Virus record (IMG/VR): IMGVR_UViG_3300029190_000033
Coordinates: 1 to 5,495 of that record
Strand: one strand, 5' to 3'
DNA length: 5,495 bases
Origin: a virus
Lineage: Duplodnaviria; Heunggongvirae; Uroviricota; Caudoviricetes
A program made the translations under genes and the position numbers. This document shows, one piece after another, positions 302 through 5,495 of the stretch. The notes beneath the pieces were generated by a model. That model was not told the origin of the DNA. It did not search any database and saw only the letters and a program-made list of their open reading frames with translations. Within the stretch, counting starts at the first letter, position 1, and the number at the start of each line of letters is the position of its first letter.

Positions 302-574
302 ATGACAGTAGTCATTACATATCTGGCTGACGATAACGCCAGAAATCGCCGCAGAGCACGCAGACAGGCTCAACGTGAGCAGGCAATGCAAGAACAGCGA
401 CTGGCGCGAAAAATTGCGCTAAAGCTCTCTGGTTGCGTCAGAGCAGACAAAGCAGCATCACTCGGAAGCCTTTGCTGCAAGGAAGAAGATGAACGCAGTG
501 GAAGTATTTGCCTGCCAAACGTAGCCATTTACGCGGCAGGATACCGGAAATCAAAACAACTGACGGCGAGGTAA
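302..574 (+). CDS. N: N-family transcription antitermination protein (P22 gene 24 / lambda N-like), 90 aa
   Basis: RBS GGAGG 5 nt before ATG 302. N-terminal arginine-rich motif DNARNRRRARRQAQREQ resembles the lambda N motif (AQTRRRERRAEKQAQ); the MTVVITY start resembles P22 gp24 as recalled. First gene after the nut-like site. Confidence 0.85.
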   Translation: MTVVITYLADDNARNRRRARRQAQREQAMQEQRLARKIALKLSGCVRADKAASLGSLCCKEEDERSGSICLPNVAIYAAGYRKSKQLTAR

Positions 575-577
575 GTG

Positions 578-802
578 ATGAATCAGACATACATTCCATC
601 ATGCTTGAGAAATCTGCCAAAGCAGAAAGCAAAGCCCCGCAAGCAAGCCATAAAGGACGCTAAGGCAGAGGTTATTGATCAAGCAATACAATTGCTCAGG
701 GAGGAGTTAAGAAGTGGCAAGCTCGAAGGAATGATGATGCCCTATCAGCGCGGATATCTATCGGCGATTAGTAAGCTGGAAGTATTGAAGAGTGAATTAT
801 GA
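578..802 (+). CDS. Hypothetical protein, 74 aa, charged and helical-looking; ral/17 position
   Basis: ORF with GAGG RBS 6 nt before ATG 578 (track start 575 is GTG with too-short spacing); begins 4 nt after the N stop. No recognisable motif; GC looks lower than N or erf. Confidence 0.6.
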   Translation: MNQTYIPSCLRNLPKQKAKPRKQAIKDAKAEVIDQAIQLLREELRSGKLEGMMMPYQRGYLSAISKLEVLKSEL

Positions 803-864
803 ACTATCTGGAATTTCCGGATGGTTCATTGTTTTGGCAGCAAACCACTTATTTGAGGTGAGAT

Positions 865-1335
865 ATGACAAAATCATGGAGCGTACCTTTTCCTGAATCA
901 GAAACTGAACATGATGGAATGCCTGTTTTCTGGAGATTCCAGGCGACAGTTGAAGAAGATGGAATCAAAATATTCGCACTTCAATATATAGCTTTTCATC
1001 AGACAGAGCATTATGCATGGTTGGTTCCTGCGCATTGGATTGTTAATTTTAAACCAGCACCAAATCGGTGGTTACAGGAATGGAAACAAAAGAGAAATAG
1101 ATATGCAATTAAGAAAGTAGCAAAAAATGCAGAAAGATCTTTTGCATTCCCAACGAAGAAACTTGCCATTGAAAGTTTATTGCGCCGGAAGAAATACCAT
1201 TTGATGAGAATCAAACAAGATTTGGCTGTTGTATCAACTCTTGTTGATGGGATGAAGAATATTGATACATCAACACCAGATATTGAATATAACTTTGAAC
1301 ACAACAAAGAAACAGAAAATTGGGTATTTTATTAG
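865..1335 (+). CDS. Hypothetical protein, 156 aa, AT-rich moron-like gene between N and cIII
   Basis: Clean ORF with GAGG RBS 6 nt before ATG 865. Visibly lower GC than flanking genes (roughly 35-40% versus about 50% by eye). No predicted transmembrane segment, so not SieB-like. Followed by an inverted repeat and an intrinsic terminator. Confidence 0.7.
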   Translation: MTKSWSVPFPESETEHDGMPVFWRFQATVEEDGIKIFALQYIAFHQTEHYAWLVPAHWIVNFKPAPNRWLQEWKQKRNRYAIKKVAKNAERSFAFPTKKLAIESLLRRKKYHLMRIKQDLAVVSTLVDGMKNIDTSTPDIEYNFEHNKETENWVFY

Positions 1336-1349
1336 TACAAATAAGCACT

Positions 1350-1377
1350 GTGTATTCATTCCAACGAGTGAATACAC
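1350..1377. repeat. Perfect 9-bp inverted repeat GTGTATTCA / TGAATACAC with 10-bp spacer
   Basis: Read directly; 15 nt after the stop of the 156-aa ORF; no T-tract follows, so not a canonical intrinsic terminator. Confidence 0.6.
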
Positions 1378-1439
1378 GGAGCAATGTCGCTCGTAACTAA
1401 ACAGGAGCCGACTTGTTCTGATTATTGGAAATCTTCTTT

Positions 1440-1464
1440 GCCCTCCAGTGTGAGGGCCTTTTTA
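1440..1464 (+). terminator. Rho-independent terminator (tL-like): GCCCTC / cagtgt / GAGGGC then CTTTTTAT
   Basis: Perfect 6-bp GC-rich stem, 6-nt loop, immediate T5 run, in noncoding DNA between the moron ORF and cIII. A weaker hairpin CGCTTC / ACTC / GAGGCG + TTTT lies at 1480-1499. Confidence 0.6.
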
Positions 1465-1529
1465 TATGCATACCAATAACGCTTCACTCGAGGCGTTTTC
1501 GTTATGCAATCAAACAGAAGGAGCATCCT

Positions 1530-1700
1530 ATGCAACAGTTCGCTATTGCAGGGGCGGCATCGGTTCGCCCTTTCAACCCGATTTTATCGGTACAGCATTC
1601 ACGAAAAAACATTTTAACCGGAGCAGACTTTAAACAACCAAGAATGAAAAGTTTGCTCGAAAAGCTTTGGGATATTTTGAAACAACAAGGCCGTCCATGA
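1530..1700 (+). CDS. cIII: cIII-like protein (FtsH inhibitor family; P22 c3 / lambda cIII-like), 56 aa
   Basis: RBS AAGGAG 7 nt before ATG 1530. MQQFAIAG resembles the lambda CIII start MQYAIAG, and SLLEKLWDILKQQG resembles the CIII central helix (SLLERITRKL..RLIDILNQPG), as recalled. The track's longer ORF from 1425 would run through the terminator hairpin and is rejected. Confidence 0.7.
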   Translation: MQQFAIAGAASVRPFNPILSVQHSRKNILTGADFKQPRMKSLLEKLWDILKQQGRP

Positions 1701-1855
1701 GTTTTACAGATAACTGGTCAGACGAAGAATTCATTCGTCAGATGAAAGAATTAATCGGTAACGAAGGAGATATTCATGTCACTTGCAACCACAGTGAAGG
1801 AGAGCAAGTTACAGAGACGCATGTACACGCAGAAAGCTCTCTGGTATCGCCATAA
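1697..1855 (+). CDS. Small hypothetical protein, 52 aa, in the kil position (Kil-like candidate)
   Basis: ATG 1697 overlaps the cIII stop (ATGA), with AAGG 6 nt upstream. Overlaps the next candidate ORF by 80 nt in another frame. Kil assignment is by synteny only. Confidence 0.5.
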   Translation: MSFTDNWSDEEFIRQMKELIGNEGDIHVTCNHSEGEQVTETHVHAESSLVSP

Positions 1856-1956: not shown

Positions 1957-2553
1957 ATGAGCAAAGAATTTTATGCAAGGCTGGCAGCCATTCAGGAGAA
2001 TCTGAACGCGCCAAAGAATCAGTACAACTCATTCGGCAAATATAAATACAGAAGCTGCGAAGACATTCTTGAAGGCGTTAAGCCGTTACTGAATGGCCTG
2101 TTTTTATCAATCAGCGATGAAGTTGTGTTGATTGGTGATCGGTATTACGTGAAAGCAACGGCAACTATTACTGATGGCGAAAACAGTCATACAGCAACCG
2201 CTCTTGCACGAGAGGAAGAAAGCAAGAAAGGAATGGATTCTGCACAAGTTACGGGCGCTACAAGCTCTTATGCACGCAAGTATTGCCTCAATGGTTTGTT
2301 CGGCATTGATGATGCGAAAGATGCAGATACCGACGAGCATAAACATCAGCAGAACGCAGCAGCAAAGCAATCAAAACCATCACCTACACCTGAACAGGTT
2401 CTAAAAGCATTCACTGACGCAGCATTGCAGAAAAACNNNNNNNNNNNNNCGTTCGCCAAAGCGTGGAAGATGCTCGAAGGCACACCGGAGCAGCACAAAG
2501 CGCAGGACGTTTACAACATCAGACGAGACGAATTAGAAGGAGCGGCTGCTTAA
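1957..2553 (+). CDS. erf: Erf-family single-strand annealing recombinase (P22 essential recombination function), 198 aa
   Basis: N-terminal region MSKEFYARLAAIQENLNAPKNQYNSFGKYKYRSCEDILEGVKP...GATSSYARKYCLNGLFGIDDAKDAD closely matches P22 Erf as I recall it. Contains 13 masked bases (2437-2449); frame is maintained across them. Confidence 0.9.
   Translation: MSKEFYARLAAIQENLNAPKNQYNSFGKYKYRSCEDILEGVKPLLNGLFLSISDEVVLIGDRYYVKATATITDGENSHTATALAREEESKKGMDSAQVTGATSSYARKYCLNGLFGIDDAKDADTDEHKHQQNAAAKQSKPSPTPEQVLKAFTDAALQKNXXXXXFAKAWKMLEGTPEQHKAQDVYNIRRDELEGAAA
2437..2449. other. Run of 13 N (masked bases) inside erf
   Basis: Literal n characters; the erf frame continues across them, suggesting 1:1 masking. 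Confidence 0.95.
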
Positions 2554-4203: not shown

Positions 4204-4969
4204 GCAAGATTGACTATCAGGCACTGCGTGAAAAAGCAGAGAAAGCAACTAAAGGAAGCTACATCGNNNNNNNNNNNNNNNNNNNNNNNNCGGCAATTTA
4301 ACAGGAGTTTTTGTTTGTCAAAAATGGAAAGGAGAGCCAGGTGGCGTGATTGCAGAATGTCACGTTAACTGCCTGGTTGAAACAGATGCTCAGGCTTATG
4401 CAAACGCAGAATTCATAGCAGAGGCTAACCCAGCTACCGTACTGGCACTACTGGATGAACGGGAAAGAAACCAGCAATACATCAAACGCCGTGACCAGGA
4501 GAACGAGGATATTACGCTAACGGTAGGGAAGCTGCGTGTTGAGCTTGAAGCAGCAGAGAACAACCTTATTGATAGTGAATGCCATGTTGCTGAACTGGAA
4601 GAAGCGCTACGCGATAAGCAGGCGTTACTTGAAGCCTCAGAAAAGCGCAACGCAAAATTACAAAGCGAGAATGCATACATCCGCAACCGGTTCAAAGAAC
4701 TGGACCTATTAATGGGGAAAAACATTCTGGTCATGCAGGCTGCCATTATCGAATGGCAGGCAACTGGCGACGCTAAGAGCGGACTAGCATGGATTTATAA
4801 CACACTGTTTGGCCCTGGCGAATTACCGGACGAATCTGAGAAAGATGCTCAGGCCTACTTTAATCGCAAATATGCACCGATTGACGAAAAGCTTATGGCG
4901 CTTCACAAGTGGTTTTGGGAACAAAGTGAAGCCGAGCGCGCCGCTGGCATTGGCATCAAAGGAGAGTGA
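4200..4969 (+). CDS. Ead/Ea22-like phage protein, interrupted by 24 masked bases; coiled-coil C-terminal half
   Basis: RBS AGGAGG 7 nt before GTG 4200. N-terminus [21 protein letters not shown] and downstream AQAYANAEFIAEANPATVLALLDERE are typical of Ead/Ea22-like proteins as recalled. Reading frame before the N-run differs from the frame of the long ORF ending at 4969, so the true start is uncertain (could be 4346). Confidence 0.6.
4267..4290. other. Run of 24 N (masked bases) inside the Ead/Ea22-like gene
   Basis: Literal n characters; the frames on either side are not the same. Confidence 0.95.
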
Positions 4970-4970
4970 T

Positions 4971-5495
4971 ATGAGCACTATCACTAAAGAACGTATCGAA
5001 TTGTTCATTAAATCCCCGCTTGAAAACGGGCTTACCCGTGGCGAACAAATGGAACTGGCACGAATTGCACTGGCATCGCTGGAAGCAGAGCCTGTAAGCC
5101 AAGCTTACAACTTGGCAGAATTAATCGAAGGCATGGAAGTTTCCATTGATGTAAGCACTTGTGATGCTGATTTAGGTAATCGCTATTTCGGCACCGTCAC
5201 CGAGGCGTTAGAACTTGATACAGCCAAGAATGGTTACATCCTCCTGGTTCAGGACGCAGAGCCAAACTTCGATGTAAATGGCAACTCTCCGGTAACTCCG
5301 GATAGCTGGATCTCCCGCTTCGAAGAAATGCCGGATCCGTCTAGCGAAAGGCGCGTGTGTGCGTTCACACCTACCAACCATGAAGATATGCGCTACCGCT
5401 TCGTGCCCGCCTCGCTCTTTAAGACAGTTTGCAGAGACGCGACCCACTGGTTTTATATGCTTCCGCCAGTAGGGCGGGAGGAGGTTGCAGGTGGC
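4971..5495 (+). CDS. Hypothetical protein, 5' part only (175 codons, open to window end)
   Basis: Not in the ORF track; manual translation from ATG 4971 (MSTITKERIELFIKSPLENGLTRGEQMELARIALASLEAEPV...) has no stop through 5495. Perfect RBS AAGGAG 6 nt upstream, 1 nt after the previous stop. Confidence 0.65.
   Translation, partial: MSTITKERIELFIKSPLENGLTRGEQMELARIALASLEAEPVSQAYNLAELIEGMEVSIDVSTCDADLGNRYFGTVTEALELDTAKNGYILLVQDAEPNFDVNGNSPVTPDSWISRFEEMPDPSSERRVCAFTPTNHEDMRYRFVPASLFKTVCRDATHWFYMLPPVGREEVAGG

What the first reader, a model, noticed from the sequence alone, without database searches (positions are those of the whole stretch)
865..1335. AT-rich 156-aa moron ORF between N and cIII: candidate novel exclusion or defence gene
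The N-to-cIII interval of lambdoid phages is a known insertion hotspot for accessory genes that act on the host or on competing phages (ral, sieB and the like). This ORF has a good RBS, clearly lower GC than its neighbours, its own downstream inverted repeat and terminator, and no motif I can assign; it is not membrane-like, so not SieB. The protein is basic in the middle (KQKRNRYAIKKVAKNAERSFAFPTKKLAIESLLRRKKYHLMRIKQ) and acidic at both ends.
Basis: partly seen in the sequence, partly recalled or inferred. Interest (0 to 1): 0.7.

Follow-up and report, generated by a model that had tools for sequence, protein, structure and literature searches.

The report
Uncharacterised early phage accessory gene
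The 156-codon gene is real, but it is a near-identical copy of a long-catalogued gene of unknown function (HK97 gp45, Shiga-toxin phage 933W L0079), and it occupies a swap-in slot after the phage N gene that in sister phages holds the anti-restriction gene ral.

Summary
The ORF at 865-1335 (+) is real. It is 156 aa with a strong RBS. Its GC is 35.7%, against 41-51% in the flanks. The product is basic in the middle and acidic at both ends, and it is under purifying selection.

It is not new. It is 97-98% identical to HK97 gp45, 933W L0079, H-19B and phi24B vb_24B_11c (PHROG 1636, function unknown). It occurs in 598 of 5426 complete E. coli genomes.

It sits in a defined accessory-gene slot just after N:
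- The 25-nt RBS linker at 837-861 precedes at least 9 unrelated genes in other prophages. These include lambda orf28-ral, mEp213 orf184 (a published Abi trigger) and Sakai ECs_1180.

No promoter of its own was found, so expression should depend on pL and N, in lytic growth and not in the lysogen. A 63% homologue lies in a phage with no detectable integrase or repressor.

A confident AlphaFold model (pLDDT 91.7) matches no solved structure, and there is no Pfam, NCBIfam or PADLOC hit.

Best reading: an early, host-directed (counter-defence or takeover) binding protein. A prophage exclusion gene is less likely. The function remains unproven.

The parts
302..574 (+). N-type antiterminator gene. 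It is the upstream anchor of the slot.
   Evidence: PF25694 E 5e-15 and phrog_271 E 3e-33. In 80 IMG/VR loci that carry the ORF, one of at least 5 N alleles lies directly upstream in nearly all.
575..802 (+). 75-aa ORF of unknown function (equivalent to mEp213_046). It is an optional insert between N and the slot.
   Evidence: phrog_5305 E 5e-38. Absent in 933W and HK97, present in mEp213.
799..839 (+). Terminator-like hairpin (stem 799-829) followed by TTGTTTTGG. It resembles lambda tL1 in its position after N.
   Evidence: RNA MFE -18.6 kcal/mol, z -4.6.
837..864 (+). Conserved linker that carries the RBS (GAGGTGA at 855-861). It is the left boundary of the cassette slot.
   Evidence: Homology with 933W, HK97, phi24B and L008 starts at 833, and with Bas106 at 837. 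It is identical in mEp213 up to the ATG. The exact 25-mer at 837-861 precedes at least 9 unrelated ORFs in IMG/VR contigs.
865..1335 (+). The 156-aa ORF, a member of the HK97 gp45 / 933W L0079 / phi24B vb_24B_11c family (PHROG 1636).
   Evidence: Purifying selection. AF2 model with pLDDT 91.7.
1345..1382 (+). Very stable inverted-repeat hairpin. It is the right boundary element of the slot. Its function is unknown.
   Evidence: MFE -21.7 kcal/mol, z -6.8. It is found after the slot in about 95% of loci regardless of cassette. In Bas106 it is separated from the ORF by two inserted genes.
1379..1446 (+). 68-nt conserved segment with a boxA-like CGCTCGTAA. It is duplicated upstream of N in mEp213.
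1440..1463 (+). Intrinsic-terminator-like hairpin GCCCTC-CAGTGT-GAGGGC followed by TTTTT. HK97 annotates it as a putative terminator.
   Evidence: It follows the slot in most loci whatever the cassette.
1530..1700 (+). cIII gene, the downstream conserved neighbour.
   Evidence: phrog_550 E 1e-22.

Best explanation
The ORF is the E. coli allele of the HK97 gp45 / 933W L0079 gene family. It is a single-gene accessory cassette in the exchangeable slot immediately downstream of N in the early-left (pL) operon of lambdoid phages.

Shown:
- The slot is bounded on the left by a conserved RBS linker and on the right by a conserved hairpin plus terminator.
- In sister phages the slot holds unrelated genes, including the anti-restriction pair orf28-ral.
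- The gene has no detectable promoter of its own.

Inferred:
- It is transcribed from pL only after N-mediated antitermination, that is, during infection or induction and not in the repressed lysogen.
- Its product is a soluble, basic protein of about 18.7 kDa. It has an N-terminal beta-sheet domain and a 33-residue amphipathic helix with a heptad hydrophobic stripe.
- It acts alone as a binding protein. It probably uses its conserved basic residues (R24, K87, R91, K109, with R115 invariant in the close family) to bind a negatively charged target: nucleic acid, a nucleotide, or an acidic host protein.
- Through this it modifies the host early in lytic growth, as a counter-defence or takeover function like its slot-mates, and not by excluding other phages from a lysogen.

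Confidence is high for identity, slot and expression logic. It is low for the molecular target.
For: Identity:
- 98% nucleotide and 97% amino-acid identity to 933W L0079, HK97 gp45, H-19B, phi24B and Bas106.
- Full-length match to phrog_1636, E 4e-110.

Slot:
- mEp213 is 98.8% identical from N up to the start codon. It then carries an unrelated 107-aa gene, and identity resumes at the inverted repeat and terminator.
- The 25-nt linker precedes at least 9 unrelated ORFs. Of 112 complete first ORFs, 54 are orf28/ral type, 28 are this ORF and 14 are ECs_1180 type.
- 40 full-length Ral genes lie behind the same linker.
- ral, orf28 and sieB are absent from all 80 loci that carry this ORF.
- One of at least 5 different N alleles lies directly upstream in nearly all of those 80 loci.

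Expression:
- No sigma-70-like site on the + strand between 107 and 1703.
- In 933W only 58 nt separate N from the gene, and pRM transcripts stop at the annotated tM upstream of nutL.

Not specific to lysogeny:
- 63-64% homologues occur in Bas81 and NX263. The Bas81 genome has no annotated or tblastn-detectable integrase or repressor.
- Distant homologues sit in early, replication or recombination regions, some next to orphan methylases.

Real protein:
- Non-synonymous divergence is 0.10-0.25 where synonymous sites are saturated, and dN/dS is 0.07-0.24.
- The AF2 model has pLDDT 91.7.
- Conserved basic residues and the heptad L113/I116/L120/V127.
- No conserved partner gene.

Precedent:
- Silas et al. 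2023 (bioRxiv 10.1101/2023.04.06.535777) describe phage accessory regions as clusters of anti-defence genes.
- Two cassettes of this very slot gave phenotypes in that study: Ral counteracts type I R-M, and orf184 triggers gop-beta-cII.
Against: - No functional data exist for any member. The gene was not among the 200 accessory genes screened by Silas et al..
- Two other cassettes of the slot that they did screen (orf60 and orf47) are not among the accessory genes listed with a phenotype.
- Sharing a slot is weak evidence of shared function.
- The promoter scan is a simple consensus search and could miss a weak or non-sigma-70 promoter.
- The conserved basic residues and the neighbours of distant homologues (beta clamp, Sak4-like ATPase, ParB-like protein, RusA, pol III theta) fit a DNA-transaction or regulatory role equally well.
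- No structural or sequence link to any known anti-defence protein.
Confidence: 0.45

Rival explanations
1. DNA- or RNA-binding accessory factor for the phage's own DNA transactions or early regulation. The protein would dimerise through the heptad helix and bind nucleic acid through the basic patch. It would then assist or regulate replication, recombination or transcription, not target host immunity.
For: - Net charge of +13 over residues 71-118, with K87, R91 and K109 invariant.
- A heptad stripe with 8 of 10 a/d positions hydrophobic.
- A weak, non-significant composition match to a bZIP basic region (PAP1, E 1.2).
- Distant homologues lie directly after a beta-clamp gene (L006, L007), after an exonuclease plus AAA_24 pair (L004), after pol III theta (L010), before ParB-like and RusA genes (Bas81, NX263), and overlapping a GerE-type HTH gene (L100).
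Against: - The gene is freely replaceable by unrelated small acidic proteins and by ral in otherwise near-identical phages. It is present in only 11% of E. coli genomes. That is unlike a needed DNA-metabolism factor.
- It co-occurs with three different recombination modules, Red, Erf and RecT, so it is not tied to any one of them.
- No conserved partner gene.
- No HTH or other known nucleic-acid-binding domain was detected.
Confidence: 0.25
2. One reading: a prophage-borne exclusion or defence gene that protects the lysogen, or the infected cell, against competing phages.
For: - The N-cIII interval of lambda also holds sieB.
- The slot carries 2-TM proteins in some prophages.
- The gene is AT-rich and patchily distributed, as defence cargo often is.
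- One distant homologue (L005) sits alone on the opposite strand among structural genes, in a moron-like position.
Against: - No own promoter detected, and the gene lies in the cI-repressed, N-dependent operon.
- The protein is soluble, not membrane-associated.
- No PADLOC, Pfam or NCBIfam hit.
- Homologues occur in an apparently non-temperate phage and in lytic-phase early and replication operons.
Confidence: 0.1
3. A host-toxic 'kil-like' early protein or selfish filler with no adaptive target. The cassette would persist only because the slot tolerates insertions.
For: Many pL-operon genes are dispensable in the laboratory. In this window the slot is followed by a cIII allele with no kil ORF.
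Against: - Strong purifying selection across genera, with non-synonymous divergence 0.10-0.25 where synonymous sites are saturated.
- 41 invariant columns among 20 sequences that go down to 55% identity.
- A superfamily detectable to E about 1e-4 in metagenomes.
- 593 of 598 E. coli genomes with a match carry a copy covering at least 80% of the gene.
Confidence: 0.05

Closest known systems
HK97 gp45 (NP_037731) / 933W L0079 (AAD25424) / phi24B vb_24B_11c / BASEL Bas106_0042; PHROG 1636
   Same: The same gene. It is 96.8-98% identical at the protein level, has the same length, sits in the same position after N, and has the same downstream hairpin and terminator.
   Different: Only the neighbours differ. 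This window has an extra 75-aa ORF between N and the gene. It lacks the ea10/ssb gene that follows in 933W. All of these entries are annotated 'hypothetical protein'.
Lambda orf28-ral anti-restriction cassette
   Same: It occupies the same slot behind the identical 25-nt RBS linker and ahead of the same inverted repeat and terminator in many prophages. It is never found together with this ORF within the +/-5 kb examined. Like this ORF it is an N-dependent early gene.
   Different: No sequence or profile similarity (hhalign probability 0.1%). Ral is 66 aa and rich in cysteine. This protein is 156 aa and has no cysteine. Restriction alleviation was not tested.
mEp213_045 = 'orf184' of Silas et al. 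2023 (trigger of the gop-beta-cII abortive-infection system)
   Same: An exact positional alternative. The flanks are 97-99% identical up to the start codon and again from about 10 nt after the stop of this ORF (about 40 nt after the orf184 stop).
   Different: An unrelated, acidic 107-aa protein (pI 4.1). Its phenotype cannot be transferred to this ORF.
SieB superinfection exclusion protein (lambda, P22)
   Same: Encoded in the N-cIII interval of lambda.
   Different: SieB is a distinct 184-aa protein, encoded on the opposite strand in the lambda record. By published accounts (my knowledge, not tested here) it is a membrane protein. This ORF has no hydrophobic segment, shows no similarity, and never co-occurs with sieB.

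Membership tests
HK97 gp45 / 933W L0079 family (PHROG 1636) | Full-length match to the family profile | tested here: met
   phrog_1636, E 4e-110, residues 1-156 on profile positions 1-156 of 156.
HK97 gp45 / 933W L0079 family (PHROG 1636) | Near-identity to the named members and the same position downstream of N | tested here: met
   96.8-98.1% amino-acid identity to HK97 gp45, 933W L0079 and H-19B. The position after N is seen.
Moron (an extra gene with its own promoter and terminator, as defined for HK97/HK022; definition recalled from my own knowledge) | Inserted between genes that are adjacent in related phages, with atypical base composition | tested here: met
   The cassette is replaced by other genes in mEp213, Sp5 and others. 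GC is 35.7% against 41-51% in the flanks.
Moron (an extra gene with its own promoter and terminator, as defined for HK97/HK022; definition recalled from my own knowledge) | Own promoter that allows expression from the repressed prophage | tested here: not met
   No sigma-70-like site on the + strand between 107 and 1703. The 28-nt linker offers only a TTGGCA with no -10 hexamer at 16-17 nt spacing (read directly from the sequence). This is a consensus scan only, so a weak promoter is not excluded.
Moron (an extra gene with its own promoter and terminator, as defined for HK97/HK022; definition recalled from my own knowledge) | Own terminator | tested here: inconclusive
   A terminator-like hairpin lies at 1440-1457. 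It stays with the slot whatever the cassette. In Bas106 it lies beyond two further genes.
SieB-type superinfection exclusion | Membrane-spanning protein with sequence similarity to SieB | tested here: not met
   GRAVY -0.61 and maximum 19-residue hydropathy 0.56. There is no SieB PHROG or Pfam hit. tblastn with lambda SieB finds nothing in 80 loci that carry the ORF.
Ral restriction alleviation (PF11058) | Sequence or profile similarity to Ral | tested here: not met
   No Pfam hit. hhalign of the family profile against lambda Ral gives probability 0.1%.
Ral restriction alleviation (PF11058) | Alleviates type I restriction of unmodified phage | not testable with these tools
   This needs an EOP assay of unmodified phage on EcoKI+ cells with and without the gene.
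Known anti-phage defence systems (PADLOC-DB v2) | Match to a defence-protein HMM | tested here: not met
   The only hit is a chance-level Cas1_II match, E 0.013, 12.8 bits.
Phage accessory-region gene (sensu Silas et al. 2023) | Variable gene in a hotspot flanked by conserved sequence in related genomes, non-universal, and co-located with known counter-defence genes | tested here: met
   Conserved linker and conserved right boundary with at least 9 alternative cassettes, including ral. Present in 598 of 5426 genomes. Definition taken from bioRxiv 10.1101/2023.04.06.535777.

The most novel reading that the evidence does not exclude
The gp45/L0079 family is the founding member of a new class of phage counter-defence (or host-takeover) proteins with a previously unseen fold. 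It would be made as the first N-dependent product of many lambdoid phages, including Shiga-toxin phages, and would neutralise a specific E. coli immunity or DNA-surveillance factor through its conserved basic patch. It would be the functional counterpart of Ral in phages that lack ral.
Probability: 0.3. Interest if true: 0.7.

Novelty: already known. Interest (0 to 1): 0.4.

Why it matters
- The gene is carried by about one in nine complete E. coli genomes and by most of the sequenced Stx1/Stx2-converting phages that matched. It sits in the position that is transcribed first once N acts.
- If it is a counter-defence or takeover factor, it would influence which strains Shiga-toxin phages and HK97-like phages can infect or lysogenise.
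- Its confident but unmatched predicted fold makes it a clean target for structure-function work.
- The slot has an invariant RBS linker on the left and an invariant hairpin plus terminator on the right, with at least 9 interchangeable cassettes. This gives a simple sequence handle for harvesting further accessory genes from lambdoid prophages.
- As it stands, this is a catalogued hypothetical gene with no phenotype.

Tried and rejected
Database searches with no significant hit:
- Pfam, NCBIfam and PADLOC scans.
- PDB sequence searches with two family profiles; best E 0.29.

Structure searches:
- The afdb50 library was unavailable.

Profile comparisons: hhalign against lambda Ral and Ea10 found nothing.

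Spurious hits: the repeat-protein hits P0059 and P0081 in the representative search are compositional artefacts.

Literature:
- Searches for L0079, HK97 gp45, accession numbers, locus tags, vb_24B_11c and Bas81 found nothing about this gene.
- A 'gp45' in the OLD preprint belongs to phage HK578.
- The gene's peptides are absent from the 200-gene table of Silas et al.. None of their modelled genes starts M-T-K-S-W.

Other dead ends:
- The search for related loci with the divergent alignments A2 and A4 failed for lack of a conserved stretch.
- No conserved neighbour or partner gene among distant homologues.
- The 98-aa ORF on the minus strand (1011-1307) was rejected as an artefact of the AT-rich coding strand, because selection acts on the + frame.

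Full report
**1.

An ATG at 865 opens a 156-codon frame that ends with TAG at 1333-1335. GAGGTGA lies at 855-861, 3 nt upstream of the ATG. In DNA this AT-rich the per-codon stop probability is 0.078, so an open frame of this length has P about 3e-6. None of 2000 shuffles of 803-1400 reached it.

The ORF has GC 35.7% and GC3 28%. The surrounding genes have GC 41.5-51% and GC3 38-52%. The product is basic in the middle and acidic at both ends: residues 71-118 have net charge +13, 1-35 have -4, and 119-156 have -6. Its pI is 9.2 and GRAVY is -0.61. It has no hydrophobic segment and no cysteine, and it has seven tryptophans.

Downstream there is a very stable inverted-repeat hairpin at 1345-1382 (-21.7 kcal/mol, z -6.8). 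A terminator-like hairpin with a T-run follows at 1440-1457. N (302-574) and cIII (1530-1700) flank the region.

A 75-aa ORF (575-802) and a terminator-like hairpin (799-829; -18.6 kcal/mol, z -4.6) lie between N and the ORF.

**2. The gene is not new**

At the DNA level it is 98% identical to 933W L0079, H-19B, HK97 gp45, phi24B vb_24B_11c, the BASEL phage Bas106 and many Stx1/Stx2-converting phages. In every annotated record it is a 'hypothetical protein'.

It matches PHROG 1636 (unknown function) end to end, E 4e-110. It occurs in 598 of 5426 complete E. coli genomes, with up to four copies per genome. In 593 of those genomes a copy covers at least 80% of the gene. Every source name read for the four clusters that carry any (E. 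coli, Pectobacterium, Cronobacter) is 'hypothetical', 'uncharacterized' or 'prophage protein'. Full-text searches for its locus tags, accession numbers and names found no paper about it.

**3. It is a real protein under constraint**

Close relatives (55-97% identity) occur in Escherichia, Salmonella phage, Cronobacter, Pectobacterium, Brenneria, Rosenbergiella and Symbiopectobacterium. Forty-one alignment columns are invariant. Between genera, synonymous sites are saturated (pS 0.7-0.9) while pN is only 0.10-0.25. Where dS can be measured, dN/dS is 0.07-0.24.

A profile search of 1.84 billion representatives found 84 proteins. Most are 130-160 aa and align over residues 19-140. They fall in PHROGs 1636, 13631 and 25384, all of unknown function.

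Across this superfamily the conserved positions are:
- an aromatic residue followed by a basic one at 23-24;
- G33;
- E/Q46-T47;
- K87, R91 and K109, and A101;
- a heptad of aliphatic residues at 113, 116, 120 and 127;
- a C-terminal aromatic residue at 155.

**4. The ORF is one cassette of a defined exchange slot**

This is the main new result. Phage mEp213 is 98.8% identical to the window from position 197 through N, the 75-aa ORF, the hairpin and the RBS, right up to the ATG. The coding sequence that follows is unrelated: mEp213_045, 107 aa. Identity returns at window 1345-1463, which is the inverted repeat and terminator.

The junctions with 933W, HK97, phi24B and Bas106 fall at the same places, 833/837 on the left. 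In Bas106 two genes are inserted between the stop codon and the inverted repeat. In 933W the ea10/ssb gene is inserted just after the terminator.

I scanned IMG/VR for the exact 25-mer at 837-861 (GCAGCAAACCACTTATTTGAGGTGA). Among the 112 complete ORFs that start right after the 25-mer there are at least nine unrelated genes:

| First ORF after the linker | Count |
|---|---|
| lambda orf28 | 54 |
| this ORF | 28 |
| an 83-aa protein identical to Sakai Sp5 ECs_1180 | 14 |
| a 2-TM protein | 6 |
| mEp213 orf184 | 5 |
| several rarer types (62, 87, 60 and 52 aa) | 5 in all |

Forty of the orf28 loci carry a full-length 66-aa Ral. The ECs_1180 identity is.

The inverted-repeat hairpin and the terminator follow the slot in about 95% of loci, whatever the cassette. 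Conversely, ral, orf28 and sieB are absent from all 80 loci that carry this ORF. In those loci the gene sits directly after one of at least five different N alleles, while its downstream neighbours vary.

So the inverted repeat and terminator belong to the slot, not to the gene. AT-richness is a property of all the cassettes (GC 36-46%). This ORF is the largest cassette, and apart from one 52-aa singleton (pI 10.1) it is the only basic one. The soluble cassettes are otherwise acidic (pI 4.1-4.7), and the 2-TM cassette is near neutral (pI 6.6).

**5. Expression logic (inferred)**

No sigma-70-like promoter is predicted on the + strand between 107 and 1703. In 933W and HK97 only 58 nt separate N from the gene. 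In 933W the pRM transcript ends at the annotated terminator tM, upstream of nutL and N. In this window a terminator-like hairpin precedes the linker.

The gene should therefore be silent in a repressed lysogen. It should be among the first delayed-early products once N acts. This is the opposite of what is expected of a lysogen-protecting exclusion gene, such as the cI-linked stk of 933W.

**6. The family is not tied to lysogeny or to N**

- In Brenneria and Pectobacterium prophages the 62-64% homologue lies just upstream of xis-int. In Brenneria it follows a pol III theta (HOT-like) gene.
- In the siphoviruses Bas81 and NX263, a 63-64% homologue is the first gene of a small operon. In Bas81 that operon holds a ParB-like gene and a RusA-like gene; in NX263 the equivalent genes are annotated 'DNA binding protein' and 'DNA polymerase III beta subunit'.
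- The complete Bas81 genome has no annotated integrase or repressor among 97 features. tblastn with five integrases and three cI proteins finds none.
- More distant members lie in early or replication regions: after a beta-clamp gene, after an exonuclease plus AAA_24 pair, next to orphan methyltransferases, SSB and a RecA-dependent nuclease, or overlapping a GerE-type regulator gene.
- No neighbour is conserved, so the protein probably works alone.

**7. Structure**

With close homologues only, AlphaFold gave a poor model (pLDDT 65.8). Adding nine distant homologues raised it to pLDDT 91.7 and pTM 0.78. The secondary-structure elements are:
- long strands at 19-30 and 33-46, then a strand at 50-55;
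- short helices at 56-61 and 66-74;
- a strand at 83-86;
- a 33-residue helix at 98-130;
- a conserved but non-regular C-terminal tail.

The long helix carries a continuous heptad stripe, with 8 of 10 a/d positions hydrophobic, and a basic face.

**8. What it most likely does**

Shown:
- The gene's identity.
- The slot and its boundaries.
- Mutual exclusivity with ral.
- Absence of a recognisable promoter.
- Purifying selection.
- A confident fold with no structural match.
- Presence outside temperate phages.

Inferred:
- Expression is N-dependent and early-lytic.
- The protein acts by binding, because it has no enzymatic motif and has an invariant basic patch plus a zipper-like helix.
- Its role is host-directed: counter-defence or takeover.

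The role is suggested by the company the gene keeps. Silas et al. (bioRxiv 10.1101/2023.04.06.535777) describe such accessory regions as clusters of anti-defence genes. They tested four cassettes of this very slot. Ral counteracted type I R-M, and orf184 triggered the gop-beta-cII abortive system. Neither orf60 nor orf47 appears among the genes they list with a phenotype. The present gene was not in their set of 200.

My confidence in each reading:

| Reading | Confidence |
|---|---|
| Early-lytic, host-directed binding protein | 0.45 |
| DNA-transaction or regulatory factor | 0.25 |
| Toxic or filler gene | 0.05 |

**9. Comparison with known systems and verdict**

The ORF is a member of the HK97 gp45 / 933W L0079 family, and all tested features of that family are met. 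It is an accessory-region gene in the sense of Silas et al. It fails the promoter criterion of a classical moron. It fails every tested feature of SieB, Ral and the PADLOC defence proteins. It resembles Ral only in the slot it occupies and in its expected timing.

The sequence and the hotspot are already known; the function is not. Interest is moderate. The gene is widespread, conserved and Stx-phage-borne. It should be the first gene transcribed after N, and it has a confident, unmatched fold and a clear experimental path. Nothing here is surprising to a lambdoid-phage specialist, and there is no phenotype yet.

Noticed in passing
window 1345-1382: A very stable hairpin (-21.7 kcal/mol, z -6.8) with no U-run after it. 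It is conserved at the right edge of the accessory slot in about 95% of loci, whatever cassette is present. Its role is unknown; an RNase III site, a protein-binding site or a recombination boundary are possibilities.
   Followed up: partly
window 1379-1446; L108 (mEp213) 1325-1392 and 2722-2789: A 68-nt segment with a boxA-like CGCTCGTAA that runs into the terminator stem. It occurs twice in mEp213: once downstream of the slot, and once upstream of N, where it is fused to the boxB-like GAAATGCGGG of nutL. These direct repeats flank N plus the cassette. They might drive module exchange, or the downstream copy might be a second nut-like site.
   Followed up: partly
window 799-839: A terminator-like hairpin (-18.6 kcal/mol, z -4.6) followed by TTGTTTTGG. 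It overlaps the stop codon of the 75-aa ORF and runs straight into the conserved linker. Similar 'hairpin, TTTTTGGCA..., GAGGTGA, ATG' junctions recur between other cassettes of the slot (the 3' flanks). This suggests a repeated boundary module.
   Followed up: partly
window 575-802: A 75-aa ORF (phrog_5305, unknown function; equivalent to mEp213_046). It is inserted between N and the slot in this window and in mEp213, and it is absent in 933W and HK97.
   Followed up: partly
window 1524-1696: The cIII allele here (56 aa) differs from that of HK97. The 173-nt segment replaces the 274 nt of HK97 that encode cIII plus kil. No kil-sized ORF fits before the next gene at 1697.
   Followed up: no
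window 1697-1855: A 52-aa ORF that matches phrog_2123 ('recombinase'; HK97 gp41/42 region), 96% identical in DNA to HK97. From memory and not checked here: HK97 orf41 was reported as required for exclusion of HK97 by the 933W Stk kinase.
   Followed up: no
window 2437-2449 and 4267-4290: Two runs of N (13 and 24 bases) interrupt the Erf gene and a small ORF upstream of the Ea22-like gene. They appear to be masked stretches.
   Followed up: no
L106 (E. coli O157:H7 Sakai, prophage Sp5) 4721-5040: The Stx2 prophage Sp5 carries a different 83-aa acidic cassette (ECs_1180) in the same slot behind the same linker. It equals 'orf60' of Silas et al., which is not among the genes listed with a phenotype in their screen.
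   Followed up: partly
L018/L107 (Bas81) 19698-20174 in the record; L104 (NX263): A 63-64% homologue heads a small operon embedded, in opposite orientation, among structural genes. In Bas81 the operon holds ParB-like and RusA-like genes; in NX263 the equivalent genes are annotated 'DNA binding protein' and 'DNA polymerase III beta subunit'. Bas81 has no detectable integrase or repressor.
   Followed up: partly
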